A program made the translations under genes and the position numbers. Source: a virus. Taken from it: DNA of 64,000 nucleotides. Positions 1,185-41,367 of this stretch are shown here, piece after piece (the stretch's first letter is position 1; every line of letters begins with the position of its first letter). Under the pieces are notes generated by a model. It was not told where the DNA came from. It searched no databases and worked only from the letters and a program-made list of their open reading frames with translations. Where the stretch lies: positions 5,300-69,299 of the IMG/VR virus record IMGVR_UViG_3300044691_000113; one strand, 5' to 3'.

Positions 1185-1631
1185 TCACGGTCGGAGTTGT
1201 CGAACGAAGTGAATAAACTTCTCCGTCACATCGGTAAAGCCGCACCGCTCCACCGTGCCGCGCATAATCTTCGCAAGTCTCGACGGCACCGCTACCCGTG
1301 CAAGGCGTATCTTTCTCGATACTAGAAAGCTGCCCAGCGTCGGAACCAGCGCCTCGAGCGAGTTCATGCCCTGCTTATTCAGGCCGATCTTTCTCAGATA
1401 AGCTTCGAACTCGATGTAGAGTCCGTCGACGATAATCCCGTCGAGATTTTCAGCCACCAATGTCAGCACCACGGGGAAGGCGAAGAAGTCGGGACGTTCC
1501 TGCGGTCCCATCATTTGCCCCGCAGCGTCGAGCAGGAAGGTGAGCGCCGGCAAGTCCCTCTCCTCCGCGATCCGCCACGTCAGGCCGTTCGACTCCAGCG
1601 ACCAGTGGCGCCAGTTGTCTACTTCTCCCAC
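1185..1631 (-). CDS. Hypothetical protein, possibly GNAT-like virion assembly factor
   Basis: WRIAEERDLPAL N-terminus and ERCGF C-terminal motif resemble GNAT folds; lies just upstream of ejection genes as in many podoviruses. Confidence 0.5.
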   Translation of the reverse strand: MGEVDNWRHWSLESNGLTWRIAEERDLPALTFLLDAAGQMMGPQERPDFFAFPVVLTLVAENLDGIIVDGLYIEFEAYLRKIGLNKQGMNSLEALVPTLGSFLVSRKIRLARVAVPSRLAKIMRGTVERCGFTDVTEKFIHFVRQLRP

Positions 1632-1993
1632 TCGTCGCCCGCCGCGGCCTTCAATTGCTCAAGTCCGTCTTTCAGCGCATTCACCATGAGCAATCCGCTT
1701 GAGAAAGCTGTCGGGGAGAAGTGCATCGCAAACATGATCGTTCCGTCATCGAAACGGAAGATGCCTGGATTGTCGGGGAAATTTACTGCTGGGTTTTCGA
1801 AGAAGTCCGGTATCGCTCTGTCTTTTTTCCAGAAGATAAAGGCCGCGCTGCGCGCCATGATACTTCCATTGGCTCCTACCATTTGGAAGAAGATGCGACC
1901 TTCCGATCGATAAAGGTGAGCAGGAGAACCTTCCATTACATCTTCGAAACGAATCTGGACGAGTTGGCATTCGCGATCTGTTGGCATACGCAT
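1619..1993 (-). CDS. Hypothetical protein
   Basis: 124-aa ORF co-oriented with and overlapping the next gene. Confidence 0.6.
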   Translation of the reverse strand: MRMPTDRECQLVQIRFEDVMEGSPAHLYRSEGRIFFQMVGANGSIMARSAAFIFWKKDRAIPDFFENPAVNFPDNPGIFRFDDGTIMFAMHFSPTAFSSGLLMVNALKDGLEQLKAAAGDEWEK

Positions 1994-9779: not shown

Positions 9780-11054
9780 TTAGTATCCAGCAGGCTGTTT
9801 ACACCCAAAGACTGAAGACTGACTCTTCGGATTCGAGTTGTAGTAATTCACAGTGTCCACCATAAAACTGGCGGCACCGCTGGTGATCTGCCCGTTGGTT
9901 CCGACCTGCTGGAAAACCTTGCGGCCTTCCGAGGTGAACCAGAACGGCGGAGCGCCCCACTTGATCTTTCCCCACGTCTCAGTGTTGAGATAATCCCAGC
10001 GCTGCATGTGCGCGTGGATGTTCTCGACGACCGTGCAGCCGTTGACGGTGGGATCGCCCTGGAACAGGAGATCGTAACCGTTCGGTGCCTTACCATCGGG
10101 GCGGGTGATGGTCATCATCTGACCGGCAATCGCCTCGTAAGCAGCCTTCTGCCCGGTGTGGGTGTGGATCTTCAGCTTGCCGTTCTTGATGGCCGACAGA
10201 CCGAGCGCCTGCTTGATCTGGTCCATGGGGAGCCGGAGCAAGGGAGGAGTTACGGAACTGTTAGCCGCATTCACGGCATTGCTGATGATGAAGTTGTTGG
10301 TGGCAACCGATCGGTCCAGACCGATGGTGAGACCGGTCGTTGCATTCGAGAGCCAGTAGGGGATGCCGTACACGAAGCTGGGTGCGCCGGAGGCAAGGCC
10401 GGGTACACGCAGGATCGCGCCGGCAGCACCGAACACCGCATCGCAGTTCACGGTCTGTGCTCCGCCGAGGGACTGGGATACGGAAAGGATGTTCGAGGTG
10501 CCGATCAACGTAGTGCCGGTGTAGACATCCACGGGCATGTTCTTCGAGAGCAGCCGCGCTCCGAAGTCGTTGTTGTTGAGGGTGTAGATTTTGTTGGTGG
10601 TGTCGACAGCGGTGACGTTGCCGAGGAAGCCAGTGCCGTCTCCACCGCAGAGGAAGATGTCGCGATAGCGGGCGACCGCATCGATCGAATCGGCCATCTG
10701 CTTCATGACGACGTTGACAGCGGTCTGCTGCGGCTTACCGGCAATCTCCGCCAACTTGGTCCAGCCTACGGGCAGCGCCCATGCGACCGGAGCCATCGTT
10801 CCCTGCTGCCAGGTCGCGGAACCCGGGGTGGGGAAGTTGACTGCGGGATTGTCCAGTGAGATCGCGGAGATAGCTGCCGGGATGCTGTCCTGGAACGTTA
10901 CGCGGTACGTGTGAGCCGACACCATTTCGGCGCGGCCGTTGTCGGCGATCAGAGAGTCGAGAACGGAATCCCGCTCGACGAGAACCTCTGGATTCGCCAT
11001 AACCTGTTCGAGTGCTACTGCGATTGCTCCTACCCCTGCCTGAAGATCGGCCAT
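9780..11054 (-). CDS. Major capsid protein (HK97 fold inferred)
   Basis: 424 aa after scaffold; strong RBS AAGGAGG; GDGTG, GLDRS and C-terminal NYYNSNPKSQS motifs typical of capsid proteins; followed by a UUCG hairpin. Confidence 0.8.
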   Translation of the reverse strand: MADLQAGVGAIAVALEQVMANPEVLVERDSVLDSLIADNGRAEMVSAHTYRVTFQDSIPAAISAISLDNPAVNFPTPGSATWQQGTMAPVAWALPVGWTKLAEIAGKPQQTAVNVVMKQMADSIDAVARYRDIFLCGGDGTGFLGNVTAVDTTNKIYTLNNNDFGARLLSKNMPVDVYTGTTLIGTSNILSVSQSLGGAQTVNCDAVFGAAGAILRVPGLASGAPSFVYGIPYWLSNATTGLTIGLDRSVATNNFIISNAVNAANSSVTPPLLRLPMDQIKQALGLSAIKNGKLKIHTHTGQKAAYEAIAGQMMTITRPDGKAPNGYDLLFQGDPTVNGCTVVENIHAHMQRWDYLNTETWGKIKWGAPPFWFTSEGRKVFQQVGTNGQITSGAASFMVDTVNYYNSNPKSQSSVFGCKQPAGY

Positions 11055-21542: not shown

Positions 21543-21571
21543 CTAAGTCCTTGGTGGTACTATTCTTAGCT

Positions 21572-21679
21572 ATGCGACACTTGACGTTTTTACTATCTGC
21601 CTGCCGAACCTACTGGTCTCTAATCACTGAAAAGACAACGAAAGAAGAGAGGGATGAGTGGCGTCCATTCTCGATGTGA
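21572..21679 (+). CDS. Candidate 35-aa antisense-orientation microprotein
   Basis: TGGTACTAT extended -10 at 21555-21563, ATG 8 nt later; ORF fits the intergenic gap; AT-rich. Confidence 0.35.
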   Translation: MRHLTFLLSACRTYWSLITEKTTKEERDEWRPFSM

Positions 21680-21682
21680 TTC

Positions 21683-22480
21683 CTAGACTCCTGCATTGCA
21701 ATTGCTCCACGCCGCGATAGCGTTCAGCGCTGTGCTGTTCCAGATGCCGTTGAAATATCCGGCGTCGAGGATGTTTCCCTGGAAGGCATCCGCCAGTCCG
21801 TTGGCCACTCCGAAAGTAGTGATGGGCGCACCGAAGGAAATGGCGCCGGCTGTTCCGCTGCCATCAGCAGTCACCACGCCGCCAGCCATCGTATACAAGG
21901 CCCATGCGCCAGTGGTGGCGTTCACGGTCACTGCAACCGTGTACTTGCTACCGCTGGTAAACGTGGCAGACCCGGAACCTATAGAGGAGACGCTTGAGAC
22001 AAGGATCTCCTGGACACCGCCTCCGCTAATTCTCCATTCAAAAGCTGTAGATGGTCCCCCGATGATGCCGCGAAAAGCGCCAGACGGTTGTAGTGTCGCC
22101 CAGAAAGAGGTTGAGGTTACGCTGGTTGGAATTCCACTGCCTAGCTGCAAAGCGTTCGGAGCCCCTGAATAAGTTGCGGCAGTTAGAGTGCCGAAGGAGC
22201 TAGGTGTATAGGTGGGTTCAGCATAAGAACCCGTATTCCCTACGAGGCTCAAGCTTCCAACCGTGTCGGGAATCAAATTGATGGACGCTCCTAAGCTACA
22301 GGCACCTCCTACGCAGGTCACACCAGCGCCGTAGGCAGGCCATTGCGAGGTTTCAAAGGCTGTAGGTGCGGCACAACCGCCGCTCGACGGTCCACCACCA
22401 ACACCTCCTTTGCCGCCGATGCCGCCCTTACCGCCAATCTGAAGCAGCAGGAGAGCCAAAACTATTCCGTGTCGAATCAT
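21683..22480 (-). CDS. LamG/concanavalin-like domain protein with N-terminal hydrophobic signal
   Basis: Start re-called at ATG 22480 (MIRHGIVLALLLLQ); Gly-rich linker; YTVAVTVN..WALY and FQGNILDAGYFN match the LamG-like pattern. Confidence 0.6.
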   Translation of the reverse strand: MIRHGIVLALLLLQIGGKGGIGGKGGVGGGPSSGGCAAPTAFETSQWPAYGAGVTCVGGACSLGASINLIPDTVGSLSLVGNTGSYAEPTYTPSSFGTLTAATYSGAPNALQLGSGIPTSVTSTSFWATLQPSGAFRGIIGGPSTAFEWRISGGGVQEILVSSVSSIGSGSATFTSGSKYTVAVTVNATTGAWALYTMAGGVVTADGSGTAGAISFGAPITTFGVANGLADAFQGNILDAGYFNGIWNSTALNAIAAWSNCNAGV

Positions 22481-22485
22481 CGTCG

Positions 22486-25400
22486 TTATATCCCCGGGCA
22501 GGTATAGGTAATGGTGTAGCCGGTCGAAGCGGTGGGTGCCGTACCGACATTGAGGGTCCACACCGAGGTGGTGTAGCTCCACGAGTAGGGCAGAGCAGTG
22601 AAGGGGCTGGCAGTGAGGACGACGCTTGCCGTGCAGTCCGGCAGATTGGTGTGTGCCGTACCCGCCGTCACGGTGAGCAGTGCGCCCGTCGTGGTCGCCG
22701 TTCCTGCGGTGAGGGTGACGGTCCCGTTCGTGGGCCCGCAGAGATGGCTTGCGGTGCAGGCGATCGTCGGTGACGTTCCAGCAGCAGCGCCCGCCGCGAT
22801 GGTTGCCGCCGTGAAGGAGCCGATTGCATTGCCCTTGAGGGTCGGTGCCTGCTCTGCCCCGGTGTACGTGCCGCCCGTTCCAGTGGCTCCGTTGATGACT
22901 GGCGAGGTCAGCGTCTTGCCGGTGAGCGTCTGGGTCGCCCCGATGCCTGCCAGCGTGTCGCTCGCCCCTGGCAGGGTAAAGGTTGCGTTGGCGGACCCGG
23001 TGAACTGCGTGTTGAAGGCACCGTTGAGGGTGAGGGTTGAGCCAGTGATCAGAGTGAGTGTCGCCGAGGTCGTCGGCGCCGTGATGGTCACCTTGTTGAT
23101 AGAGGTGGCAGTCGCCGCGCCAAGGGTCGGTGTCACCATCGTGCAGCTCGTCACCAGGCAGACGTTGCCGCTTCCGCTCGTCCCCACGATGGTCTCGATG
23201 ATCGCGCTCGAAGAGTTTGTGTAGAACGGGAATCCGGTAGCGGCCGCGCCTGCCAGCGTGACACTGTAGGACGTGACTGCGGCCGGAGCCTGGATGCAGA
23301 TAGTCGTCGTCGTGCAATTGGCATCACCTGTACTTGTCGTTCCCTGTGGCAGGAAGAGAAAGCCTGCTGTGGTGCCGGTGCCGACGAAATACTTGCCTGC
23401 GAAGCCAGCCGTGCCGGTGTAGGTGAAGGCCGTTCCGCTGTCGGTCGCCAGGGAGTTCTTAGGGGCTCCGCCTGCACCGCCGCCGAGCATCACTACGTTA
23501 TTGGTCAGCAGCGCCGAGGTTGCGGCTGCCGAGGTGCTGGAGGCGTAGAAGACACCGCCAGAGGTGAAGCCTGCACTCGCCGGGAACGTGTTGCCGTTGA
23601 CCGAGGTCGCATTGATCGTTCCGCTGCCGGATACGCCAAGGCTGGCACCAGTGCCGACCACCATAGCCGCCGTGGAGTTCGTGCTGCCGGTGAGCGCAGA
23701 GAAGGCAGTTGAGCCGCCTGAGCCGCACGCAGCACCAGCGTCAACCAGGTCGATGCCGTTGGCTGCCAGCTTGACACAATCTGCCGCGGTGCCGGCTGTC
23801 GCAATACCCGGAATCATCAGCGCACCGATGTTGTTCGGGTTCTGCATCCAGCGGTGCAAGGTGGAGTCAGGGTAGAGCGCCGCAGAGGAGGCTACGCCGG
23901 TGATTGCCGTTCCTTCCGGAATCAACCAGCCGTTAGCCGTTCCTGAGCCCGTGTAGGTGAGCTTCGTTCCGTCATCCGTAAGTCCGGAGTTGATGATGGA
24001 ATTCGCACCGTTGGCTTTGGGGATAGTGTTCGTAACCAGCGAGGTCGAGGTCGTGTTGCCGGTGCCAGCAGCAGGACAACCAGACCCACCCGTCTGACAG
24101 AGGCCAGCGAGCGCCACACCGCCTACCGCGCTGGAGTTTGTGGCCAGTGTCGCTGTCGCCGCGTTGCCAGTAGTGCTCTGGTTGAGTGTGGGAAAGTCGG
24201 CAGCTACGGCCGCAGAGAGCGTGCCTGCCGTGTCCTTCAGTATCCCGGTGAGACCTGATGGCCCTTGAGTTGTTCCCAGATTCCCGGAGAGAAGCGAAAA
24301 GCTGTAGTCGCCGCTCACGGGCACAACCGCTCCGGCTCTCGTGTTGAAGCTCGACACACCAGTCCCGGAGCCGCTGAACGTATAGGCGTTGCCTGTATGA
24401 GATACGCCCGGTCCGCTGAAGGTGAAGGCCCCAGTCAGCGTATCAATACTGATTACGCCACCACCACCGCCCCCGCCGCAGCCAGAGCAGCTTGGCACGG
24501 TGATCGGCACGTCGCTAGACCATCCGGAAACTGTCTGAATCACGTGGGAATCGCCCGAGACGCCGTGGATTGTCGTCGTTGTTGCAGAGCTGGTCTGGTC
24601 GATAGTGGAGAATGTCCCGCCAGCACCGCCCACTACGCTATTGGCGTCTGAAGTAGTGATGGTTTGGATGTACCCAGAACCGGTAGTCTGAAGAATTATT
24701 ATGTGGTCTGCGGGTTCCTCGCGTACCGTCAAGGTGTTAGTGCTGTTTCCGGTCACCCTCTCCATTTTGCCGGTGTCCTGGTGGATCGTCTCGGTGTACG
24801 TCCCGTTTTGGGTTGGGACCCGAAAAAGAAGAAAATTGGAGCGTGCATCCGCACAACCAAACGAGCAACCCTGAAATGTGACGAACGCGGTGTCGGGCGT
24901 GGGAATATTCTGGAAAATGGTGAGGAACGGGGCTTCGTTATTGGTCATGTCGAGCATGACGTTCGCAACTGGCTTAGTTCCCCCGTGGCCGAGATAGTTA
25001 TTTGGGGTGTCCTGGAACGCAACGCGATACCACGTCGTTCCTTCGGGGATCTGGCCGCCGAGTTGATCAAAGTGAATAACGTCAGGGGTAGCCGGAGAGA
25101 CCTGTGATTGGAAGTTGATAAGGTTGTGGTCAAGCCCCTGGAAAACTTCGCTATAGACCTGATCTTCTAAGTGGTCTCCGGCAGTTACCTGAAAGTTGGT
25201 ATTCGGCTCGACGGTCAGATTGAAGTTGTTGGCGAAGGTGACGGGGTCTACCGTATTCACGATTTCTACGGCGGGAAACAGTTGAGCTTCGCGAACTGAA
25301 AGTCCATTGAGCTGAGACTGAATCTCGACAGCATTAGTGCAGGTTGTCGTAGCTGCTGGGCCGGCAGTGTTCCATGTGACCGTAGAGCCGTTATCGGAGG

Positions 25401-27831
25401 TAATAGCTGCAAGGATATTGAACGACGTATCTGCACAGCCAGAGACGATGATGAAATCTTTCGACAGGACTAAGAACGGATCAGTCACCGGGGCGCTGAC
25501 GACGTTCGAGCTGTTTCTGGTAAGCGTGACGCCAGCAGGGGCAACTATTCTCGTTGTGGCGTAGCCCGAAAGAGCCTGTAGCCAACGACCCGCACCGATC
25601 CTTGAATACAAGAGGTGCGTGGCGTCCAGTGCCCCAACGATACGGATAATCTGCCGCCCAGGGAACGTTCCAGTGTACTGATTGGCCCTGATGTCAATCG
25701 CGGTGCAGGAGTGCGAACCCTGTACGACATAGGCCTGGGCTTGGTGGTTGTAGCGTAGGGCTACCGTTATGGTCTGAGTCCCGCTAGAAAATCCACCGAC
25801 CGAGACTACCCTTGCACTCTCCATATAATCGCGGTCGGCATAGCAGACGGTGCTGGCCGTGGTGATTGCGGAGGTGAGACCGGTGACCACAACGGTCGCG
25901 TTCGTCGTCGCGCCATAGTACTGGGTAGGAACGGTTACAGGCGAAGCTACCCGTCCGATGTTGTCGGGAGTCAGGGTAAGCGTGTCGATTGTCAGTTGGC
26001 CCGCATCGGCAACCCCCGGATCACCTGAGAAAACTATCTTGAATAGGGCGCTTCCCTTGCTGGCATCGACGAGGGGCGTTCCATCTCCCGGAAAGGGCAC
26101 GTTACTAATCAGCGTCCCTTGTATCAGCGTGGCTCCCGCCGCAAGAGTGGAGTTAGCCGAGATGGTCATCGGGGTAAGGTTCTGGCCGATCTGATTCCTT
26201 ACCGTATTGAAGCCTTCAGCACCGCCGTCCGGGTTTCCCCTGTTGTTGGTGACAACGTTCTGCCAGATGTGGCTGTCGCCAACCCCCATTCCTTGATGCT
26301 GAATGGTGAATTCGTTGACAATGCCGCGCCGCATGAATTCGAAGGCCCACTGAAAGGCTACGTAGCTGTCAGGTCCGCCGCCGTCAAATCCGTTCTTCCC
26401 CGACCCGGTCATTTCAAAATCGCGTAGGTAGGTGAAGACGTTATTTCCCGCACCCGAAGCCTGCGCCTGCTGATTCGATACCCAGCGGTCGTCGCTAACA
26501 ATGCCGCTCGGCGATCCTACATTGGTGTTATAAGCGTAGCTGCCAATACCATTCTGCCGGTAGTCATAGAACTTAGTATTGTTGGCAAATGGTGCTGGGC
26601 AGCCGATGGCATCACGCCAGTTGGGGCCGACGCAGGTACTATTCCCGCTGAGGATGCCTTCAACTTGGGCGTAATCCGGGCCAGCCACAACGATGCTTCC
26701 CGCTACCGCCAAAGCATTCGCTATGCCATCGTTCGAGGTTGGTGTGGTCTGATTGAGGAAGGCATTCTTGAGGCCGTCGTTACTCAGAGATTTGAAGTTG
26801 CCCACGCTGTCGAAGGTGGCGTTAGAGGCTGATCCCGCTCCACCTCCGGCGCTGAAGATTGCCTGGTTGACCGTGCCGGGTATCGTGCTTCCACCTCCGC
26901 CCGGTCCGCATTGCCCGTTGACCTGCAACACGTTGGTTCCAACTGTGCAAGGGGTTCCACTCCATATCGTCCCAGCGAGCGAGACGTAGTCACCCAAGAC
27001 TGCCGCGCGAGAGGTGAGCGGCGTGATGCCGAAGACAGGAGCATTGCTTGGCAGGGTTGCGCCAGCTCCGCATCCGCCCGTCGAGCAGAGCGTAGTCAGT
27101 GGAACAAGACCGATCTGCGTAGGAGGGTTGCCGGGTACGGGTCCAGCCCATACGAAGCCAGGGGTGATGTACGCCTGATTCGCGTCGATGCAGAAGGTTG
27201 TCCCGTTGATCGCGGAGGCTATCGCCTGGTCGTTTCCACGCTGGCAGCTCGGGTTGAGCGAGGGATTCTGTGTCCAGTAGACAGCGGCGTCGCCCTGCAG
27301 CCTCGAGCACACCCATGGGTAAGGATCGGAGGCGAGGGTGTTGTTATACATCGCACTCGGATTGCAGTTGAGCGTGGGGATACCGGCGCCAGAGATGGTG
27401 ATGCCAGCGGGAGCGATGTAGCCGTCGTAGGAGAAGGACGCCGTGGTGATGTTGGTCAGCGGGAAGGTGAAGTAGGTTGTGCCGCCGCCCGTGCTCTGTG
27501 TCTGGATCCGGTAGCGTGTGTTCGCCGGAGCCATCGTCAAAGGGTTGGCGATCGTCGGGGGAAAGCCGCCGATGTTCTGCACTGCTCCCTTGACGACTGG
27601 GAGAGTGAAGGGCGCACTCGTCGGAGATCCACCCTGGGGCGTGTAGGTAACCGGGGTGTTTGACGTGTCGGTGACGGTGAAGATGAGTTGGCCGGTGAGC
27701 GGTTGCCGGTTGTTATCGACGACCTTGTTGCCGCTGACGGGGATGGTCGCCTGCGCATGGAGCGCAGGGGGGATGGCGAGGAGGACGGCCGCGAGCAGTC
27801 CGAAGGTAAGCCAAAAGTTGATCCTGCGCAA
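22486..27831 (-). CDS. Very long fibre/spike-like protein with Sec-type signal peptide
   Basis: TTG 27831 behind GGAGG; RRINFWLTFGLLAAVLLAIPPALHA-Q; G/T/S/A-rich fibre motifs (VSSFNTRAGAV, ADFPTLNQSTTGNAATAT, ATATSINKVTITAP). Confidence 0.7.
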   Translation of the reverse strand: MRRINFWLTFGLLAAVLLAIPPALHAQATIPVSGNKVVDNNRQPLTGQLIFTVTDTSNTPVTYTPQGGSPTSAPFTLPVVKGAVQNIGGFPPTIANPLTMAPANTRYRIQTQSTGGGTTYFTFPLTNITTASFSYDGYIAPAGITISGAGIPTLNCNPSAMYNNTLASDPYPWVCSRLQGDAAVYWTQNPSLNPSCQRGNDQAIASAINGTTFCIDANQAYITPGFVWAGPVPGNPPTQIGLVPLTTLCSTGGCGAGATLPSNAPVFGITPLTSRAAVLGDYVSLAGTIWSGTPCTVGTNVLQVNGQCGPGGGGSTIPGTVNQAIFSAGGGAGSASNATFDSVGNFKSLSNDGLKNAFLNQTTPTSNDGIANALAVAGSIVVAGPDYAQVEGILSGNSTCVGPNWRDAIGCPAPFANNTKFYDYRQNGIGSYAYNTNVGSPSGIVSDDRWVSNQQAQASGAGNNVFTYLRDFEMTGSGKNGFDGGGPDSYVAFQWAFEFMRRGIVNEFTIQHQGMGVGDSHIWQNVVTNNRGNPDGGAEGFNTVRNQIGQNLTPMTISANSTLAAGATLIQGTLISNVPFPGDGTPLVDASKGSALFKIVFSGDPGVADAGQLTIDTLTLTPDNIGRVASPVTVPTQYYGATTNATVVVTGLTSAITTASTVCYADRDYMESARVVSVGGFSSGTQTITVALRYNHQAQAYVVQGSHSCTAIDIRANQYTGTFPGRQIIRIVGALDATHLLYSRIGAGRWLQALSGYATTRIVAPAGVTLTRNSSNVVSAPVTDPFLVLSKDFIIVSGCADTSFNILAAITSDNGSTVTWNTAGPAATTTCTNAVEIQSQLNGLSVREAQLFPAVEIVNTVDPVTFANNFNLTVEPNTNFQVTAGDHLEDQVYSEVFQGLDHNLINFQSQVSPATPDVIHFDQLGGQIPEGTTWYRVAFQDTPNNYLGHGGTKPVANVMLDMTNNEAPFLTIFQNIPTPDTAFVTFQGCSFGCADARSNFLLFRVPTQNGTYTETIHQDTGKMERVTGNSTNTLTVREEPADHIIILQTTGSGYIQTITTSDANSVVGGAGGTFSTIDQTSSATTTTIHGVSGDSHVIQTVSGWSSDVPITVPSCSGCGGGGGGGVISIDTLTGAFTFSGPGVSHTGNAYTFSGSGTGVSSFNTRAGAVVPVSGDYSFSLLSGNLGTTQGPSGLTGILKDTAGTLSAAVAADFPTLNQSTTGNAATATLATNSSAVGGVALAGLCQTGGSGCPAAGTGNTTSTSLVTNTIPKANGANSIINSGLTDDGTKLTYTGSGTANGWLIPEGTAITGVASSAALYPDSTLHRWMQNPNNIGALMIPGIATAGTAADCVKLAANGIDLVDAGAACGSGGSTAFSALTGSTNSTAAMVVGTGASLGVSGSGTINATSVNGNTFPASAGFTSGGVFYASSTSAAATSALLTNNVVMLGGGAGGAPKNSLATDSGTAFTYTGTAGFAGKYFVGTGTTAGFLFLPQGTTSTGDANCTTTTICIQAPAAVTSYSVTLAGAAATGFPFYTNSSSAIIETIVGTSGSGNVCLVTSCTMVTPTLGAATATSINKVTITAPTTSATLTLITGSTLTLNGAFNTQFTGSANATFTLPGASDTLAGIGATQTLTGKTLTSPVINGATGTGGTYTGAEQAPTLKGNAIGSFTAATIAAGAAAGTSPTIACTASHLCGPTNGTVTLTAGTATTTGALLTVTAGTAHTNLPDCTASVVLTASPFTALPYSWSYTTSVWTLNVGTAPTASTGYTITYTCPGI

Positions 27832-27853
27832 AGTACGCCTCCGCTGTAACGCG

Positions 27854-27885
27854 GCGTACCCTACCATTTTTAGGATTCTTGGCTA
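27854..27885 (-). promoter_or_regulatory. Late promoter motif, copy 5
   Basis: Minus strand TAGCCA-N16-TAGGGT with the shared 18-mer. Confidence 0.8.
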
Positions 27886-28193
27886 GTGTCCTCGAGGAGC
27901 TTGTTCATCATCATGTGGCCGAACGCTTTCGTGCTGGCAGCGAGGATGGAGTCGAACTTGCGTCCTTCGTTGATACGTTGCTCCATCATCCTGTGGAGGA
28001 CATGGCGGGCGAGTCCATCGACACCTTCTTTGAAGAGAACCATTCGGCCATTGGCATAGTACAGGCATGGTTGGGACGTATCGTTGTCGTCAGGGAGTCC
28101 GAGCTGCTCGCGGATGCGGACCTTCAGCCGCATCTCGAACATCATCATCAGGTACGGCGGGAGACCCTCAAGGTGCTTGAACTCAGATTGCAA
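27870..28193 (-). CDS. Hypothetical protein
   Basis: TTG start behind GGAGG; 107 aa. Confidence 0.65.
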   Translation of the reverse strand: MQSEFKHLEGLPPYLMMMFEMRLKVRIREQLGLPDDNDTSQPCLYYANGRMVLFKEGVDGLARHVLHRMMEQRINEGRKFDSILAASTKAFGHMMMNKLLEDTSQES

Positions 28194-28563
28194 GTGCTGC
28201 CTCCGTTCCCGGGAAAGGCTTCAGGATCATGCCGCCGCGGTCCCTTGGTGGCCAGAGGCGTCCGTCTGGGACGTCATGGTGCAGCACGACTGGCATCCCT
28301 TCGAACTCCACAGCCGCCCCAGCGAGCATCTCCTGGCGCATGACCTCCTCGCGCGCGTGAAGCCGTTCCTCTGTCCAATAGTCGCCCTTGGGCATCTGGT
28401 TGGTAATGAGGACAAGGCTGATGATGAAGTCGAAGACGATTGGACCGCACTCCACCTTGTCGGGCCAGAAGCCAGCGAAGCGCATGAGGGAGATGTCATT
28501 CCGCAGGTCCATCACTCGTATCTGCGGATCCTCGGCCATTCTGTTTTCGCTGTTTTCGCTCAT
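28183..28563 (-). CDS. Small protein resembling an isolated capsid A-domain segment
   Basis: PDKVECGPIVFDFIISL...AVEFEGMPVVLHHDVPDGRLW; start uncertain (28563 or 28539). Confidence 0.5.
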   Translation of the reverse strand: MSENSENRMAEDPQIRVMDLRNDISLMRFAGFWPDKVECGPIVFDFIISLVLITNQMPKGDYWTEERLHAREEVMRQEMLAGAAVEFEGMPVVLHHDVPDGRLWPPRDRGGMILKPFPGTEAALAI

Positions 28564-28972
28564 GGTTTTGCTCGGCCTTCTTCCTATCGATCTTCTGTAA
28601 CCGCTCCTGCTCCCGTCGCTCCACGTAGCGCCGGTCAACATCCAGAGGATCGTCCGGTCCCCGATACACCGTGCTGCGAGTCGTGCCCTTGGGACGCCCT
28701 GTCGACTTGCCGTTCGCATTGTTGCGCTTCCGCTTCTCGCGGGTGTGTTCGTTGATGGTGTCTACGCTGGTATCGCCGATAGGTGCCTCGGCGCGCGGGT
28801 CCGAGGTGAAGGGTAGCGGCCGACTGGTCATCCCTCTACACTGAGCGGTGGTGACGAGGTCCTCATCGCACCATGGACACTTTGCTGCGAGGTCGGGACG
28901 ATCTGGCGTTCCTGTCTCGAAGGTTCCACAGGACGGGCAATCGAACCGCGTCAGGTAGTAGGGGTTGAGCAT
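28496..28972 (-). CDS. Zinc-ribbon protein with basic tail (candidate regulator)
   Basis: CPSC...CPWC; KSTGRPKG AT-hook-like; K/R-rich C-terminus. Confidence 0.6.
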   Translation of the reverse strand: MLNPYYLTRFDCPSCGTFETGTPDRPDLAAKCPWCDEDLVTTAQCRGMTSRPLPFTSDPRAEAPIGDTSVDTINEHTREKRKRNNANGKSTGRPKGTTRSTVYRGPDDPLDVDRRYVERREQERLQKIDRKKAEQNHERKQRKQNGRGSADTSDGPAE

Positions 28973-29248
28973 CTAGTCGGTTTGGTTGTCCCAGAAGAGT
29001 TGAACGGCCAGGGCCTTCTCCTCGATCGGCAGCTTCGCCCAGAACGCATCAAGTTGGTTCTCGTCGACCATGAGGGGCACGAGGAAGCGGGTAACGTCTT
29101 CGTTGACGGAGGCATCCGGGGCTTGCTTCTTGGGCTTCTTTGGGCCTTTGGGCTTCTTGACTCCGGCGTGGAGGTCGCAGAACTTGCGCGCACCCTTCGC
29201 CTCAAACGTCTCTTCGCAGTGCTCGGACGCACATTTCTTAGTAGCCAT
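28973..29248 (-). CDS. Small zinc-finger protein
   Basis: CASEHC...FCDLH; RBS GAAGGAG. Confidence 0.65.
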   Translation of the reverse strand: MATKKCASEHCEETFEAKGARKFCDLHAGVKKPKGPKKPKKQAPDASVNEDVTRFLVPLMVDENQLDAFWAKLPIEEKALAVQLFWDNQTD

Positions 29249-29507
29249 GGGGCTCCTTCATTTGGGAGAAGTAAGATGAGCGTTCTATGCCCAGGTAGGT
29301 TCCGGTGGTGCCACTCGCGTGCCAATACAGGACACCCCACGGCTCCGGGCTGATGTACTCGGTGGTGTACTCGGCGACGGGAACTAGGCTGCCGAACGGC
29401 TCAATGGGGATGATTTCCGTCTGGGCGAGGAAGATTTTGGGAGCAATGCCGACGCCTACAACCGCCGTGGCCAGTGATCGCAGGAATGATCGTCTACCGA
29501 GCACCAT
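29238..29507 (-). CDS. Twin-arginine-signal protein carrying a capsid-like peptide
   Basis: GRRSFLRSLATAVVGVGIAP; C-terminal WGVLYWHASGTTGTYLGIERS aligns ungapped to this phage's capsid protein. Confidence 0.65.
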   Translation of the reverse strand: MVLGRRSFLRSLATAVVGVGIAPKIFLAQTEIIPIEPFGSLVPVAEYTTEYISPEPWGVLYWHASGTTGTYLGIERSSYFSQMKEPHGY

Positions 29508-29572
29508 CGCAGGAGTCCCTCAATGCTTCAGGCTCGCCCGCGCTATCTCGGGGAATGGTTGGTTGCGGAGGG

Positions 29573-29926
29573 TTAGGCTTTCGGCCCAGTCCCCACGTTG
29601 GTCATCACAACTGACGCCTTAGCTGTCGCTTCCACGTCTAACTCGCCGGTTGGCTTGTAACGCGGACTCACAAAGGCGATGGTGTCTTTCGGCATTGCCT
29701 CGGAGACGGCGAGGTCACCGTAGAAGCGTTGGCCATCGAATCCGCCCTCGGATAGTGTTCTCCGTTGTGTAGGCCATTCGACCTTCTCGAACTCCCATGG
29801 CGGCTTGGCGAACGATTCAGCAAGGTGTTGAACGGTCGTCTGGCTTAGGGGCGTTCCGGTGCCGTACTTCTCCCACGCCGCCAGGATGCGCTCTCGCCAA
29901 ACGTCTTCACCTGGCCATTCCATCAT
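29573..29926 (-). CDS. Small protein with capsid-like C-terminal motif
   Basis: EGGFDGQRFYGDLAVSEAMPKDTIAFVSPRY; start uncertain (29926 or 29962). Confidence 0.5.
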   Translation of the reverse strand: MMEWPGEDVWRERILAAWEKYGTGTPLSQTTVQHLAESFAKPPWEFEKVEWPTQRRTLSEGGFDGQRFYGDLAVSEAMPKDTIAFVSPRYKPTGELDVEATAKASVVMTNVGTGPKA

Positions 29927-29955
29927 TTCGCCCTCGTTTCTCGCAGGGTAGCACG

Positions 29956-30021
29956 GTTGCACCGTATCCAGTGCAACATTATTTGTCGTAACTCTGACGA
30001 CAAGTTGCGACAGCCAAACGG
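29956..30021 (-). promoter_or_regulatory. Promoter/operator region of the attP-proximal cluster
   Basis: Palindromes GTTGCAC-N8-GTGCAAC and TTGTCGT-N7-ACGACAA; minus strand TTGTCG-N16-TAATGT and TGcTACCCT; shares two 12-mers with 41076-41124. Confidence 0.5.
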
Positions 30022-30240
30022 GGGAGAGTTTGAGGGAGAATTAGCAAAGCCACATACGCCAAACCCTGATAAATGCTGGAAAATGCTGGAACGTCGTAAC
30101 ACTCTATGTCATTGAAAACACAAAATACAGAATGGCTACGAACCAGTAGGTCGGGCGTTCGAATCGCTCCGGGCGCACCATTTAGGATCAATAGCTTACC
30201 TCATGTATGCAGAATTATCGAGGGAGGATTTGAGGGAGGA
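30021..30240. repeat. attP arm-type direct repeats flanking the core
   Basis: Paired GAGGGAG-like repeats with 12-nt period at 30021-30040 and 30220-30240; tandem AAATGCTGGA at 30071-30090; IHF-like GATCAATAGCTTA at 30186-30198. Confidence 0.65.
30133..30180 (+). other. attP core: 3' half of tRNA-Arg(ACG)
   Basis: TGG-CTACGAA-CCA anticodon arm remnant, T-arm GGGCG-TTCGAAT-CGCTC, acceptor 3' strand ending CCA; no 5' half; about 0.9 kb from integrase 3' end. Confidence 0.9.
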
Positions 30241-30833
30241 CTAATTTCTAAAGCACAATGTGGGAACTCCCTCTTCTTCGCCCTACGCACGCTCTCTGCC
30301 GCTTCCTGGGCGAGATCCTTGGATGGATACTTCTGTTCGTCTCCCAGAGTGATGGATCTGTACGTATTGCCGTCTTTATATCGAAAAACCCACACATCTG
30401 GTCCTTTTTTCCTCTCCTTCAATGTCACGCTTCCGCATTGACGGCGGCGGTTACGGGGGCGCTTTTTGGTGTGTGGTGTGGGAATGAAGCCGAAGTAGCC
30501 GAAACGCTCTCCGAGAGTCTTCACTTCTCCAAGATCGATCATCCCTGAGTCGGCTTCCCGGTGATGGTTGGGGCAAAGCGGTATCAGGTTATTCAAGTCA
30601 TTGATTTCATCGATCATCGCTGTTCCAGGGAAGGCCATGACTCCACGCTTGTGTGCAATGTCAACGTGGCGGTCGTAACCACAGAAGAAGCAGCAGAGTG
30701 GCAGGCCCGAGGTCTCGAACTTGTTGCGCGCACCTTTTTGAATCATTGTGCGTGCCCGCTGGTATCCCATGCGAGTGAAGACTGCCGCTCGGGTTTCTCC
30801 GAGACCGTGGGTTGCTGTACGCTTGAGATGCAT
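30201..30833 (-). CDS. HNH endonuclease fused to an integrase arm-binding-like domain
   Basis: Start re-called at ATG 30833 behind GGAG; CFFCGY..VDIAH...NLIPLCPNHHREAD; C-terminal GSVTLKERKKGPDVWVFRYKDGNTYRSITLG..KY resembles the integrase N-terminus. Confidence 0.8.
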   Translation of the reverse strand: MHLKRTATHGLGETRAAVFTRMGYQRARTMIQKGARNKFETSGLPLCCFFCGYDRHVDIAHKRGVMAFPGTAMIDEINDLNNLIPLCPNHHREADSGMIDLGEVKTLGERFGYFGFIPTPHTKKRPRNRRRQCGSVTLKERKKGPDVWVFRYKDGNTYRSITLGDEQKYPSKDLAQEAAESVRRAKKREFPHCALEISPPSNPPSIILHT

Positions 30834-30921
30834 GGGTGTTCTCCGTTGACGCGGATGAGCTTTGTGCGGAAGTCTCTGAACAGACGACCGCAACCATGCT
30901 TTCATTCTACACTTCGGCCTT

Positions 30922-31089
30922 CTATCTCTGATTGCTCAGGCAGAAATTATTGCGTTCCTCTTCGTTGCAGAACCAACCGTAGGCGCCATCTTTGACCATG
31001 CGAGTCTTCGAGACGATCGAGCCACACTTCACGCACCGCGCAACCTCGGAATAGTAAGCAGGAAATAGCCAGCGAAGAAATCTCTTCAT
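30922..31089 (-). CDS. 55-aa Cys-containing hypothetical protein (below ORF-track cutoff)
   Basis: ATGA overlap with int stop; MKRFLRWLFPAYYSEVARCVKCG...WFCNEE..C. Confidence 0.55.
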   Translation of the reverse strand: MKRFLRWLFPAYYSEVARCVKCGSIVSKTRMVKDGAYGWFCNEEERNNFCLSNQR

Positions 31090-32327
31090 GCTCTTTTCCT
31101 CAGCATCTCCACAACCCTGGCGTTGGCACCGCGCACCGTCTCCGCCTTCGAACTGCCGCCGTACTTCAGGGTTTGCCGGATGTCTTCATGGCGCATGAGC
31201 GCCCGTTGCTCCTCGAGGGTGAGCTTCTCCTGGTCCATCATCGCCCGGTAGGTGTGGCGGAAGTCGTGCCAACCAAGGTTGGGGATGCCGATCAGCTTGC
31301 CCGCAGGGACGAGATGGTCCTGCTGCAACGTTCCACCCCAGAACGGACGGCCGGTAACGATGTTACAGAAAAGCCAGCCATTGACTGGGGTGGGGATGCC
31401 GTCTCGGGTCTCACCTTCGATAGTCTGCTCCTCGCGCCATAGCTCGAGGATGGCGTAGAGGTCTTCGTGGATTGGCAACTCCTCCTCAGATCCTTCGGTT
31501 TTCGTGTCGCCGGTGTTCTGACCCACTTGGGAGCGGTGGATGCTCATGACGCGTCGTACCATATTGAAGTCTTCCCAGCGAAGGCCGAGTATCTCACTGA
31601 CGCGCAGGCCCAACAGCATGGCGATGAAGATCATGGTGCGAACGTGGGGAGCCAGTTCTACCACCGTGGTCAGGGCAATCCACTGGTCATGGGTGATGAT
31701 GTTCGCTGGGCGAACCTTCTTCCTGCGCCCCTTCACCTTGACCGCGGTGACTGGATTGCGTTGCATGGGGATAAGTTGGTGCTTCATCGCGTACTCGAAG
31801 ACAAGGTGTACGAACGCCTTGATGTGGAGCTTCGTCTTCTTGCTGGCTGGACGGGCAGGTTTGCCAGGGATCGTCTTGCCGGGGATGAGCTTGCCCTTTG
31901 CCATGCGGTCTGGGATAACCCTGTCGGGCTTGGCCAGGACTTCGTAGCCGTTGACCCAGTTCTCGATCGCGAGGATGTCCTTGACCATGTCGTCGACGCG
32001 CCACTCGCCCCAGTCTGCCCGTAACCGCTTCATGAACCCGAGGTATGTCTTGGCTGTCTTCGGGCGTATGTCCTTCGGCTTGTCCCACTCCAGTTTGAGG
32101 CGATCGCAGAGGCCGGAGACGTTGATGCCGGCGATGCGCTCGTTGATCTCGAGGAGTTGGCGGTCGGCTTCCTTGCGCGCGGCGCCCTTGGTTCGGAACT
32201 TGTCGACGGTGCCAATCTCTTTGGAGCGGTATCTACCGTTCTCTTCGAAGCGGAGAACCCACAGGTCAGGGCCCTTGGCGCGGGGTTTGCGGGTGACAGT
32301 GCCTTGCTGGTAGCTGCTGCGCTTCAT
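31086..32327 (-). CDS. int: Tyrosine integrase
   Basis: GLRVSEILGLRWED, TKT, HDFRHTY, LMRHEDIRQTLKY catalytic motifs; adjacent attP. Confidence 0.95.
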   Translation of the reverse strand: MKRSSYQQGTVTRKPRAKGPDLWVLRFEENGRYRSKEIGTVDKFRTKGAARKEADRQLLEINERIAGINVSGLCDRLKLEWDKPKDIRPKTAKTYLGFMKRLRADWGEWRVDDMVKDILAIENWVNGYEVLAKPDRVIPDRMAKGKLIPGKTIPGKPARPASKKTKLHIKAFVHLVFEYAMKHQLIPMQRNPVTAVKVKGRRKKVRPANIITHDQWIALTTVVELAPHVRTMIFIAMLLGLRVSEILGLRWEDFNMVRRVMSIHRSQVGQNTGDTKTEGSEEELPIHEDLYAILELWREEQTIEGETRDGIPTPVNGWLFCNIVTGRPFWGGTLQQDHLVPAGKLIGIPNLGWHDFRHTYRAMMDQEKLTLEEQRALMRHEDIRQTLKYGGSSKAETVRGANARVVEMLRKRA

Positions 32328-41068: not shown

Positions 41069-41145
41069 GCGTAACTTGTCGTAACTCGTCGTCTCCCTGA
41101 TACAACTTAGACACAGCCAAACGGCTGAAAAGGGAGATATCACCT

Positions 41146-41367
41146 GTGAAGAAGACAACCGTAAAGAAAGCAGCCAAGCGAGTGACCGAAGCCAAGCGCA
41201 AACGGGGACCAAAGCCAGATCCGGCGTCCGAGCGCATGGCCTTCCGCCTCACGTTAGACGAGAAAGGCCACCTGCACACCCTGGCCGTCAATGACCGCCG
41301 CACCGATTCGAACTATATCCGCGAGATTGTTCTAAAGCACCTGAAGGAAAATCCACCACCCGAGTGA
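41146..41367 (+). CDS. Ribbon-helix-helix DNA-binding protein
   Basis: RGPKP, MAFRLTLDEKGHLHTLA..DRRTDSNYIREIV, CopG/Arc-like pattern. Confidence 0.7.
   Translation: MKKTTVKKAAKRVTEAKRKRGPKPDPASERMAFRLTLDEKGHLHTLAVNDRRTDSNYIREIVLKHLKENPPPE

What the first reader, a model, noticed from the sequence alone, without database searches (positions are those of the whole stretch)
28183..29926. Cluster of small genes beside attP that look like detached major-capsid fragments (candidate capsid-mimic/decoy system)
Seen: three small ORFs carry capsid-like segments. 29238-29507 has WGVLYWHASGTTGTYLGIERS, matching this phage's capsid YGIPYWLSNATTGLTIGLDRS. 29573-29926 has GGFDGQRFYGDLAVSEAMPKDTIAFVSP. 28183-28563 has PDKVECGPIVFDFIISL...VEFEGMPVVLHHDVPDGRLW. 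Recalled knowledge: the last two resemble the PD-I...GF-x-x-L-x-F-x-G-x-P-V-V-x-D-x-x-x-P-x-x-x-x-YF pattern of HK97-fold A-domains, more like other phages' capsids than this one. The cluster has its own promoter/operator region and would lie at the prophage end after integration. Inference: the fragments act either as decoys for capsid-sensing defences (CapRel and Lit are established capsid-triggered systems) or as dominant-negative poisons of rival capsid assembly.
Basis: partly seen in the sequence, partly recalled or inferred. Interest (0 to 1): 0.85.

Follow-up and report, generated by a model that had tools for sequence, protein, structure and literature searches.

The report
Phage mini-genes built from capsid pieces
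In a complete temperate soil phage, one small gene beside the integration site joins a bacterial export leader to a copy of the most conserved stretch of the head-shell protein, a second probably folds like one domain of that protein, and the third flagged gene is unrelated; what they do is untested.

Summary
Partly confirmed. The window is most of a complete 69.3-kb phage genome with an integrase and an attP-like site. Six tightly packed minus-strand ORFs (A-F, 29926-27870) run from attP into a 1793-aa signal-peptide protein.

- ORF B (29238-29507) is truly capsid-derived. A Tat-type leader is followed by about 30 residues matching the best-conserved motif of the phage's HK97-fold capsid family (hhalign 95.7%, E 8e-9; 19.4 bits against at most 4.4 for 2000 shuffles).
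- B is a presence/absence cassette in related soil phages.
- ORF E (28183-28563) has no sequence signal. Two independent predicted models resemble the HK97 A-domain. The best match is the A-domain encapsulin 2PK8, and 41 of the top 50 rows are capsid-type, but Z is at most 5.
- ORF A (29573-29926) has no capsid support.
- A further capsid-derived ORF lies at 1619-1993.
- Five related phages have none of these genes.

The decoy or dominant-negative function is untested. I favour capsid mimicry that interferes with capsid-binding partners, at low confidence. Earlier notes of this scan report the same "Tat leader plus capsid piece" design in at least 8 other soil-phage genomes. My literature searches found no description of it.

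The parts
30134..30190 (+). attP core candidate: a stretch that reads like the 3' half of a tRNA (T-arm, acceptor strand, CCA)
   Evidence: Read by eye. ARAGORN and Rfam at E<=1 call no tRNA here. It is flanked by 25-nt direct repeats at 30019-30043 and 30219-30243 (80% identical). The integrase lies at 31086-32327.
29983..30021 (+). Two 12-mer operator-like boxes upstream of ORF A, repeated at 41076-41124 upstream of an RHH-like gene
   Evidence: Searches give exact matches at both places. For the first box, 0 of 100 shuffles reach 2 matches. Searches cover the alignment and the RHH-like gene.
29573..29926 (-). ORF A, 117 aa, a conserved orphan with no capsid relationship detected
   Evidence: Three homologues at 55-77% identity. 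Negative capsid tests.
29238..29507 (-). ORF B, 89 aa: Tat-type leader (residues 1-31, 29415-29507), variable middle, then capsid-family motif
   Evidence: The leader resembles the N-termini of bacterial enzymes of 300 aa and 367 aa.
29268..29348 (-). Capsid-derived segment of B (residues about 54-80), equivalent to capsid residues about 225-250; it keeps the family's G230, G241 and R248
   Evidence: The hhalign alignment, the HMM hit at window 29268-29339 and the conserved columns.
29251..29518 (.). Extent of the B cassette that is missing in contigs of related soil phages
   Evidence: Joints 29250>29519 (X4), 29251>29526 (X2), 29255>29519 and 29255>29526 (X2) and 29239>29532 (X5), each with 1-30 other letters between, plus 29244>29504 (X2, letters between not known).
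28973..29248 (-). ORF C, 91 aa, a Cys/His-rich N-terminus then a Lys/Pro-rich basic stretch; its start overlaps the end of B
   Evidence: No family hit.
28496..28972 (-). ORF D, 158 aa, a CxxC...CxxC zinc ribbon plus a basic tail
   Evidence: Weak zinc-ribbon Pfam and NCBIfam hits below cut-off. Strain variants are 6 synonymous to 1 non-synonymous among those listed.
28183..28563 (-). ORF E, 126 aa, predicted to be a free-standing HK97 A-domain-like protein
   Evidence: Five homologues at 62-82% identity. AF2 pLDDT 71.1. VIA-align: 2PK8 at Z 5.0 and HK97 1ohg residues 250-374 at Z 4.7, with 41 of 50 rows HK97-type. Atlas: 4 of 8 rows are capsid families. No sequence-level hit.
27870..28193 (-). 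ORF F, 107 aa (TTG start behind GGAGG), an orphan; its stop lies 2 nt before the start of the 1793-aa gene
9780..11054 (-). Major capsid protein, 424 aa, HK97 fold, of a family absent from Pfam and PHROGs
1619..1993 (-). A further small ORF (124 aa, P0165) carrying capsid-derived stretches: residues 22-53 match capsid 367-398, and residues 65-86 match capsid 67-87
   Evidence: 10.9 bits against a maximum of 3.5 in 2000 shuffles. Absent from 5 related phages.

Best explanation
ORFs A-F form a strain-variable accessory gene array at the attP-proximal head of the leftward operon of a complete temperate soil phage.

Shown:
- ORF B is a chimera of a bacterial-type twin-arginine (Tat) leader and a copy of about 30 residues of the single best-conserved motif of this phage's HK97-type capsid family.
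- B comes and goes as a discrete cassette among related phages.
- A second capsid-derived ORF lies at 1619-1993.
- ORF A is not capsid-related.

Probable: ORF E folds like a free-standing HK97 A-domain.

Inferred: these mini-proteins work as mimics of capsid-protein elements. By presenting a conserved capsid piece, they compete for whatever normally packs against it. The likeliest partner is capsid subunits of related phages during assembly, which would be interference or exclusion. Tuning of the phage's own head assembly is the alternative. B would do this at the Tat translocon or membrane because of its leader.

Confidence by step: B is capsid-derived, about 0.85. E is A-domain-like, about 0.6. 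The mimicry or interference mechanism, about 0.35.
For: Capsid homology of B:
- hhalign probability 95.7%, E 8.4e-9.
- HMM 19.4 bits against at most 4.4 for 2000 shuffles.
- Genome-wide six-frame hit at E 6.9e-5, with no secondary hit in 5 related phage records.
- All three B homologues keep the residues that align with the capsid family's invariant G241 and near-invariant G230 and R248.

B is closer to other family members than to this phage's own capsid. The 25 best family members score 29.3-34.7 bits, against 26.6 for the own capsid. That fits a target other than self.

The leader is Tat-type:
- TIGR01409 scores are 18.0 bits for P0002 (cut-off 16.7), 15.9 for P0003 and 15.3 for B.
- It is 48-55% identical to the leaders of ordinary bacterial enzymes of 300 aa and 367 aa.

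E has five intact homologues at 62-82% identity. AF2 and the ESM Atlas model both retrieve HK97 capsid families. In VIA-align, 41 of 50 rows are HK97-type and align on the A-domain; the top row is the A-domain encapsulin 2PK8.

Signs of selection:
- Among the 40 best-supported of 397 strain differences, D shows 6 synonymous to 1 non-synonymous and E shows 5 to 4, with 3 of the 4 in one codon.
- Outside its variable middle, B shows 3 synonymous and 2 conservative changes.

Accessory, hypervariable character:
- A, B, E and P0165 are each absent from 5 related phage records.
- The B cassette is cleanly missing in contigs from three runs.

Fragment reuse recurs in this genome. In an all-against-all comparison of 391 ORFs, the pairs at E<=0.01 that look real are capsid with B, capsid with P0165, integrase with the HNH/arm ORF (plus its antisense-frame mirror), and the repressor paralogues; two weak pairs at E 0.007 look spurious.

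Assembly interference by prophage accessory genes has a published precedent, the Tai systems (PMC11364771, abstract read).
Against: - No binding or phenotype was tested.
- A Tat leader would send B's capsid piece to the membrane or periplasm, away from cytoplasmic capsid assembly.
- The B family is tiny: 3 proteins among 4 candidates.
- B's middle is changing fast, with 11 non-synonymous to 4 synonymous among the listed variants.
- E's fold match is weak. VIA Z is at most 5.0, Foldseek's best E is 0.46 against PDB and 0.075 against BFVD, and the model's pLDDT is 71 from only 6 sequences. E has no sequence similarity to any capsid family.
- C and D look like zinc-ribbon nucleic-acid binders, so the array may be regulatory.
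- The array is co-directional with, and abuts, three signal-peptide proteins. Its role may therefore concern exported proteins rather than capsids.
- Expression timing is unknown.
Confidence: 0.36

Rival explanations
1. Exapted scraps with jobs unrelated to capsids. B is simply a small Tat-exported or Tat-anchored protein whose mature part happened to be recruited from a capsid-gene fragment. E is a small alpha/beta protein. Together with the zinc-ribbon proteins C and D, the array serves regulation or lysogenic conversion linked to the downstream exported giant proteins.
For: - B has a Tat-type leader.
- The next three genes, of 1793, about 265 and 1043 aa, begin with signal-peptide-like sequences.
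- C and D have Cys-rich and basic features.
- Operator-like boxes are shared with an RHH-like gene.
- E has no sequence link to capsids.
Against: - B retains exactly the capsid family's most conserved residues in all 3 homologues while its middle diverges. This is unexpected if the capsid origin were irrelevant.
- A second capsid-derived ORF exists elsewhere in the genome.
- Earlier scan notes, which I did not check, report the same leader-plus-capsid-piece design in at least 8 other genomes.
Confidence: 0.27
2. Immune decoy. The capsid pieces soak up or pre-empt host or prophage sensors that recognise the major capsid protein. CapRel and Lit/Gol are the recalled examples.
For: B displays the most conserved capsid motif, which is a logical sensor target. 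The array sits in a hypervariable accessory position beside attP.
Against: - Known capsid sensors are cytoplasmic (recalled), while B carries an export leader.
- No defence or sensor gene was identified nearby.
- I found no paper describing a capsid-fragment decoy (search listings). The 'decoy' passages I read in one listed preprint concerned proteomics target-decoy searches only.
Confidence: 0.13
3. Non-functional debris. The ORFs are short-lived by-products of illegitimate recombination that pasted capsid-gene scraps into an accessory region.
For: - B is present or absent among close relatives.
- Its middle shows 11 non-synonymous to 4 synonymous changes and contains a 12-nt tandem duplication.
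- The families are very small.
- None is found in 5 related phages.
Against: - Reading frames are intact in 3 (B), 4 (A) and 6 (E) lineages at 55-82% identity, with in-frame indels only.
- Family-invariant residues are retained in B.
- Shine-Dalgarno-like sequences lie before A, B, C and F.
- Variation in D and E is biased to synonymous changes.
- Caveat: homologues came from gene calls, so broken copies would not have been seen.
Confidence: 0.12
4. Chance resemblance: nothing capsid-related is there at all.
For: The match in B is short, at 21-33 residues. E's structural scores are individually in the range the tool calls 'common arrangement'.
Against: - For B, 0 of 2000 shuffles come near the observed score.
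- hhalign gives E 8.4e-9.
- The capsid HMM gives no secondary hit in 5 control phage records.
- Three B homologues each hit independently.
- For E, 41 of 50 top rows out of 48,161 representative chains being HK97-type is not a chance composition.
Confidence: 0.03

Closest known systems
Family 4 'A-domain encapsulins' (Pfam PF08967/DUF1884; PDB 2PK8, P. furiosus PF0899), from Andreas & Giessen 2021, PMC8346489 (passages read)
   Same: These are proteins of about 100 aa that consist of the HK97 A-domain alone. 2PK8 is the top VIA-align match of the ORF E model (Z 5.0, rmsd 3.5, 78 of 94 residues aligned). Their function is also unknown.
   Different: ORF E gives no Pfam hit at all at E<=10, so none to PF08967. 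It is encoded by a soil phage. The published family is restricted to Euryarchaeota and thermophilic Bacteroidetes and sits in two-gene operons with enzymes, and no enzyme partner lies beside E.
HK97-fold major capsid proteins (SU10, A-1(L), Mic1, HK97 gp5)
   Same: The phage's own 424-aa capsid protein is of this fold. B copies its best-conserved motif. P0165 copies its C-terminal strands. E resembles its A-domain.
   Different: B carries only about 30 capsid-like residues, P0165 about 55 and E about 100. None has the N-arm, E-loop, spine helix and P-domain together, so none can be a shell subunit.
Bacterial Tat signal peptides (TIGR01409) and Tat 'hitchhiker' co-export (the latter recalled, from no call)
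   Same: B starts with RRSFLRS, followed by a Gly/Ala/Val-rich hydrophobic stretch. It scores at or near the TIGR01409 cut-off. It resembles the leaders of real bacterial enzymes.
   Different: The passenger is a peptide of about 58 residues copied from a cytoplasmic virion protein. There is no clear AxA cleavage site; the leader ends ...KIFLAQ.
Gol peptide of T4 gp23 / Lit, and CapRel sensing of capsid proteins (recalled, from no call)
   Same: A short stretch of a major capsid protein is the biologically active element.
   Different: In those systems the stretch acts within the full capsid protein as a trigger of host defence. Here it is a separate phage gene with an export leader, and no sensor is known.
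Tai tail-assembly-inhibition systems of prophages and satellites (PMC11364771, abstract read), and SaPIbov5 Ccm, a capsid-protein homologue that redirects capsid size (entry 7rwz, listed)
   Same: These are accessory genes of mobile elements that act by interfering with virion assembly of other phages.
   Different: There is no sequence relationship. Tai acts on tails. Ccm is a full-length capsid homologue, not a fragment.

Membership tests
HK97-fold major capsid protein family of this phage (alignment A2) | Significant sequence or profile similarity to the family | tested here: met
   Met for ORF B (hhalign 95.7%, E 8.4e-9; 19.4 bits against at most 4.4 for shuffles) and for P0165 (10.9 bits against at most 3.5; BLASTP E 1e-7). 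Not met for ORF A (-3.4 bits) or ORF E (-2.8 bits).
HK97-fold major capsid protein family of this phage (alignment A2) | Complete fold: N-arm, E-loop, spine helix, P-domain and A-domain in one chain of about 280 aa or more | tested here: not met
   B is 89 aa, E 126 aa and P0165 124 aa. Only about 30, about 100 and about 55 residues respectively are capsid-like.
HK97 A-domain fold (ORF E) | Predicted structure superposes on the A-domain of solved capsids | tested here: inconclusive
   41 of 50 top VIA-align rows are HK97-type and align on the A-domain (HK97 1ohg residues 250-374, Z 4.7). But Z is at most 5.0, Foldseek's best E is 0.46, and the model's pLDDT is 71. The independent Atlas model gives capsid families in 4 of 8 rows at TM 0.49-0.50.
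Family 4 A-domain encapsulins (PF08967) | Match to Pfam PF08967/DUF1884 | tested here: not met
   0 Pfam families for all 6 members of the E family at E<=10.
Family 4 A-domain encapsulins (PF08967) | Protein of about 100 aa made of the A-domain only | tested here: inconclusive
   The size fits, and the top structural match is 2PK8 at Z 5.0. The model is of moderate confidence.
Family 4 A-domain encapsulins (PF08967) | Two-gene operon downstream of an enzyme, in Euryarchaeota or thermophilic Bacteroidetes | tested here: not met
   The neighbours are small orphan ORFs and a zinc-ribbon protein in a soil phage genome.
Tat signal peptides (TIGR01409) | Twin-arginine motif followed by a hydrophobic region, scoring above the model cut-off | tested here: inconclusive
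   RRSFLRS plus a hydrophobic stretch is present. P0002 scores 18.0 bits, above the 16.7 cut-off. B scores 15.3 and P0003 15.9, both just below. Bacterial Tat-type leaders match at 48-55% identity.
Tat signal peptides (TIGR01409) | Actual Tat-dependent export or membrane anchoring | not testable with these tools
   This needs fractionation or reporter fusions and an RR-to-KK mutant.
Capsid-sensor decoy (anti-CapRel or anti-Lit type) | Binds or neutralises a capsid-sensing defence protein | not testable with these tools
   No sensor is known for this uncultured host, and no defence gene was identified beside the array.
Phage attP / tyrosine-integrase module | Tyrosine integrase next to a core site flanked by arm repeats, in a complete phage genome | tested here: met
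   PF00589 at E 3.6e-12 and phrog_1 at E 6.6e-50. 25-nt repeats flank the core. A 127-bp terminal repeat and 100% completeness. The tRNA-half reading of the core is by eye only.

The most novel reading that the evidence does not exclude
B is one member of an undescribed class of phage mini-proteins that pair a Tat export leader with a copied capsid element. The copied element grips capsid subunits of related, superinfecting phages, and B matches the family consensus better than this phage's own capsid. The leader then drags the subunits to the Tat translocon, by hitchhiker-type mislocalisation or by jamming. That would be a new kind of superinfection exclusion acting on head assembly. The free A-domain protein E and the P-domain-like P0165 would be cytoplasmic companions that cap capsomers.
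Probability: 0.12. Interest if true: 0.85.

Novelty: new variant of a known kind. Interest (0 to 1): 0.55.

Why it matters
Capsid proteins are both the commonest phage building block and a frequent target of bacterial immunity. Small phage genes that copy only their conserved pieces would be a compact, evolvable way to interfere with rival phages' assembly or with capsid sensing. One of these genes carries an export leader.

A phage-borne free A-domain would also give a plausible origin for the enigmatic A-domain (Family 4) encapsulins.

The Tat-leader-plus-capsid-piece design appears in none of the papers my searches listed, and I know of no description of it. Earlier notes of this scan report it in at least 8 other soil-phage genomes (I did not check them). 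It may therefore be widespread and is directly testable by expression.

Tried and rejected
Split-capsid idea: that A, B and E are colinear pieces of one broken capsid gene that reassemble.
- A has no capsid signal.
- A and E are not related to each other (hhalign 0.2%).
- C and D lie between B and E.
- I therefore dropped the idea. The complex-prediction job on E plus B residues 30-89 gave 'no answer' (score 0.00, mark 0.32; controls not run). That is no evidence either way.

A third, C-terminal match of P0003 to the capsid end (8/13 identical). I rejected it as a separate piece for three reasons:
- B's last codons overlap the Shine-Dalgarno sequence and start of ORF C.
- Sequence from 29250 down is kept in B-less phages.
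- In many capsid homologues this part of B aligns contiguously after the motif instead.

Other leads that went nowhere:
- The L001 'relative' of ORF A (14 residues) lies in no ORF of at least 40 aa on that strand, so it is chance.
- Scans with the B alignment found nothing in viral contigs. In genome and metagenome contigs they found only ordinary bacterial Tat leaders.
- The ORF E scan of viral contigs found nothing.
- Pfam, PHROGs and NCBIfam gave nothing for A, B (apart from the Tat model), C, E and F.
- PDB sequence searches with the capsid protein and with the A and E profiles gave nothing significant.
- The BFVD fold search of E had a best E of 0.075, with small uncharacterised phage proteins and capsids mixed.
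- Only B carries a convincing Tat-like leader in this genome.
- No sigma-70-like promoter was found in 27500-31200. The host's promoter type is unknown.
- No RNA holder was listed among the sequencing runs, so nothing can be said about expression.

Limits of what I could do:
- Paper supplements were not consulted.
- For PMC8346489 I read found passages only. For PMC11364771 I read the outline and abstract only. For preprint 10.64898/2026.01.04.697583 I read only three 'decoy' passages, which were irrelevant. All other papers were seen as search listings only.


Full report
Setting. The window is bases 5300-69299 of a single 69,299-bp contig. The contig has a 127-bp direct terminal repeat, and the collection classes it as a virus record with direct terminal repeats and 100% completeness. 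It is therefore a complete phage genome. Near-identical and related DNA occurs in soil metagenome runs.

A tyrosine integrase lies at 31086-32327 on the minus strand (PF00589 E 3.6e-12; phrog_1 E 6.6e-50). Between it and the flagged cluster lies a stretch at about 30134-30190 that reads, by eye, like the T-arm, acceptor strand and CCA of a tRNA. ARAGORN and Rfam do not call it. It is flanked by 25-nt direct repeats at 30019-30043 and 30219-30243. 'Beside attP' is therefore reasonable.

Anatomy of the cluster. Six minus-strand ORFs are packed head to tail:
- A, 29926-29573, 117 aa.
- B, 29507-29238, 89 aa.
- C, 29248-28973, 91 aa. Its start overlaps the end of B.
- D, 28972-28496, 158 aa, a CxxC...CxxC zinc ribbon plus a basic tail.
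- E, 28563-28183, 126 aa.
- F, 28193-27870, 107 aa.

F's stop lies 2 nt before the start of a 1793-aa protein. Shine-Dalgarno-like GGAG/GAGG sequences precede A, B, C and F.

Two 12-mers upstream of A (29983-29994 and 30010-30021) recur upstream of an RHH-like gene at 41146-41367. No sigma-70-type promoter was found.

The 1793-aa protein and the next two proteins (about 265 and 1043 aa) start with signal-peptide-like sequences.

Is the '424-aa capsid' a capsid? It has no Pfam, PHROG or PDB sequence hit. It does have 200 relatives at E<=0.001, mostly about 420 aa. An AF2 model built on 75 of them has pLDDT 88.5. Foldseek against PDB matches the SU10, A-1(L), Mic1 and HK97 capsids, with a best E of 9e-11 and 240 matches at E<=0.001. 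It is an HK97-fold major capsid protein of an unnamed family.

ORF B: confirmed.
- B against the capsid gives 9/21 identities (E 7e-5 pairwise). The capsid is B's best non-self hit among 391 ORFs.
- B has two homologues of the same length (P0002, P0003; 64-65% identity; 3 proteins among 4 candidates).
- Their first 31 residues are identical except for one position in P0002. The middle is variable, and the last 35 or so residues are conserved.
- Profile against profile, the B family matches the capsid family at probability 95.7%, E 8.4e-9, with B 54-87 on capsid 225-259.
- The matched stretch is the family's best-conserved motif, consensus G-x-x-Y-x4-A-x-TGTWLGL-x-RA. B keeps the residues aligned with the invariant G241 and the near-invariant G230 and R248.
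- With a capsid-family HMM, B, P0002 and P0003 score 19.4, 19.6 and 16.2 bits. The best of 2000 shuffles of B scores 4.4.
- A six-frame search of the whole genome with that HMM finds the capsid gene, B (E 6.9e-5) and one more place. The same search in five related phage records finds only each capsid gene.
- B matches many family members better than its own phage's capsid. The 25 best score 29.3-34.7 bits, against 26.6 for the own capsid.
- P0003 additionally carries PVGWTKL, which is identical to capsid 95-101.

B's leader. B's N-terminus (RRSFLRS followed by a Gly/Ala/Val-rich stretch) scores at or near the TIGR01409 Tat-signal cut-off of 16.7 bits. P0002 scores 18.0, P0003 15.9 and B 15.3. 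It is 48-55% identical to the leaders of ordinary bacterial enzymes of 300 aa and 367 aa.

B is a cassette. Contigs of related phages from soil runs X2, X4 and X5 join about 29250 directly to about 29519-29532, with only 1-30 other letters between. They therefore lack B cleanly. One of these is the 11.5-kb contig, the same length as the one that carries an E homologue.

Among the 40 best-supported of 397 differences, B shows 4 synonymous and 11 non-synonymous changes. Nine of the 11 fall in codons 46-52, the variable middle, which also contains a 12-nt tandem duplication. Outside the middle, B shows 3 synonymous and 2 conservative changes.

ORF E: probable A-domain.
- E has five homologues at 62-82% identity (6 proteins among 24 candidates, including itself).
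- It has no sequence link to any capsid: hhalign probability 1.1%, HMM score -2.8 bits, no Pfam or PHROG hit for any of the 6 members even at E<=10, and no PDB sequence hit.
- The ESM Atlas's own model (pLDDT 0.59) retrieves capsid families in 4 of 8 structure rows, at TM 0.49-0.50.
- An AF2 model on the 6-sequence alignment (pLDDT 71.1, pTM 0.61; three helices and a short sheet) gives no significant Foldseek hit. Its best E is 0.46. About 14 of the first 20 listed rows are nonetheless capsids, encapsulins or 2PK8.
- VIA-align against 48,161 representative chains puts 2PK8 first (Z 5.0, rmsd 3.5, 78 residues aligned). After it come the A-1(L), HK97 (residues 250-374, Z 4.7), phage G, SU10 and T5 capsids and others. 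I count 41 of the 50 rows as HK97-type.
- 2PK8 is the founding structure of the 'Family 4 A-domain encapsulins', proteins of about 100 aa that are the HK97 A-domain alone (PMC8346489, passages read).
- Each score is weak, and the tool warns that Z under 8 can be a common arrangement. But the composition of the list, and its agreement with a second predictor, make an A-domain-like fold the best reading at about 0.6.
- Listed strain variants in E are 5 synonymous to 4 non-synonymous, with three of the latter in one codon.

ORF A: not supported.
- A has three homologues at 55-77% identity.
- All capsid tests are negative.
- A and E are unrelated to each other.

Beyond the flagged span. The genome-wide HMM search also hit ORF 1619-1993 (124 aa, P0165). 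Residues 22-53 match capsid 367-398 at 15/32 identities (E 1e-7). Residues 65-86 match capsid 67-87 at 11/22, including NPAVNFP exactly. hhalign gives probability 33.7%. The HMM score is 10.9 bits, against at most 3.5 for 2000 shuffles. In some relatives the first match extends to the capsid C-terminus.

An all-against-all comparison of the 391 ORFs shows these pairs that look real: the two capsid pairs, the integrase N-terminus copied into the HNH ORF at 30201-30905 (E 4e-8) with its antisense-frame mirror, and the repressor paralogues. Two weak pairs at E 0.007 look spurious. This genome therefore reuses pieces of its core genes. None of A, B, E or P0165 occurs in five related phage records whose capsids are 34-53% identical.

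Mechanism. What is shown is origin and conservation, not function.

I favour mimicry, at about 0.35. In this reading the pieces present conserved capsid elements and compete for their partners. The likeliest partners are capsid subunits of related phages, given B's closer fit to the family consensus than to the own capsid and the accessory, strain-variable position beside attP. Published precedent for assembly interference by prophage accessory genes exists for tails (Tai; PMC11364771, abstract read).

The Tat leader is the main difficulty. It points B to the membrane or periplasm. The bold way out is hitchhiker-type mislocalisation of bound capsid subunits, which rests on recalled Tat biology and is untested.

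The rivals are capsid-unrelated functions tied to the neighbouring exported proteins and zinc-ribbon proteins (0.27), an immune decoy (0.13), neutral debris (0.12) and chance (0.03). A co-folding test of B with E gave no verdict.

Known or new. My searches listed no paper describing phage genes that fuse an export leader to capsid fragments, or free A-domain proteins in phages. I judged these from listings only, apart from the passages named above. Earlier notes of this scan, which are AI notes I did not check on their own DNA, report the same leader-plus-capsid-piece design in at least 8 other soil-phage genomes. B therefore looks like one more instance of a recurrent design.

Verdict. I class it as a new variant of known kinds (truncated HK97-fold proteins and accessory mimics) and score interest at 0.55.

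Noticed in passing
window 1619-1993 (-): A 124-aa ORF (P0165) inside the virion operon carries two stretches copied from the capsid protein: capsid 367-398 at 15/32 identical, and capsid 67-87 at 11/22 including NPAVNFP exactly. It is absent from 5 related phages.
   Followed up: partly
window 30201-30905 (-): An ORF with a weak HNH match (PF13391, E 2e-4) whose C-terminal part copies the N-terminus of the adjacent integrase (21/49 identical, E 4e-8). It ends next to the att core.
   Followed up: partly
window 18411-27867 (-): Three consecutive large genes (1793, about 265 and 1043 aa) directly downstream of the cluster begin with signal-peptide-like sequences. The 1043-aa protein has a chitobiase/Fn3-associated domain. 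Exported proteins are unexpected for virion fibres.
   Followed up: no
window 29351-29374: A 12-nt tandem duplication (11/12 identical) inside the variable middle of ORF B, encoding ...EYT TEY.... It coincides with the cluster of non-synonymous strain differences.
   Followed up: partly
window 3698-4093 (-): A 131-aa ORF among the virion genes matches DUF6527 (PF20137, E 1.5e-11).
   Followed up: no
window 28496-28972 (-) and 28973-29248 (-): ORFs D and C look like small zinc-binding, basic proteins. D has CxxC...CxxC plus a Lys/Arg-rich tail containing GRPKG. C has Cys/His pairs plus a KKPKGPKKPKK stretch. They are possible nucleic-acid binders or regulators at the head of the operon.
   Followed up: no
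window 29983-30021 and 41076-41124: Two exact 12-mers occur in the same order at both places. The second place is 22 nt upstream of an RHH-like 73-aa gene (41146-41367). This is a possible shared operator.
   Followed up: partly
window 9780-11054 (-) and relatives: The capsid family (200 relatives at E<=0.001) is in neither Pfam nor PHROGs. It has an extra beta-rich stretch of about 80 residues (143-225) after the spine helix.
   Followed up: no
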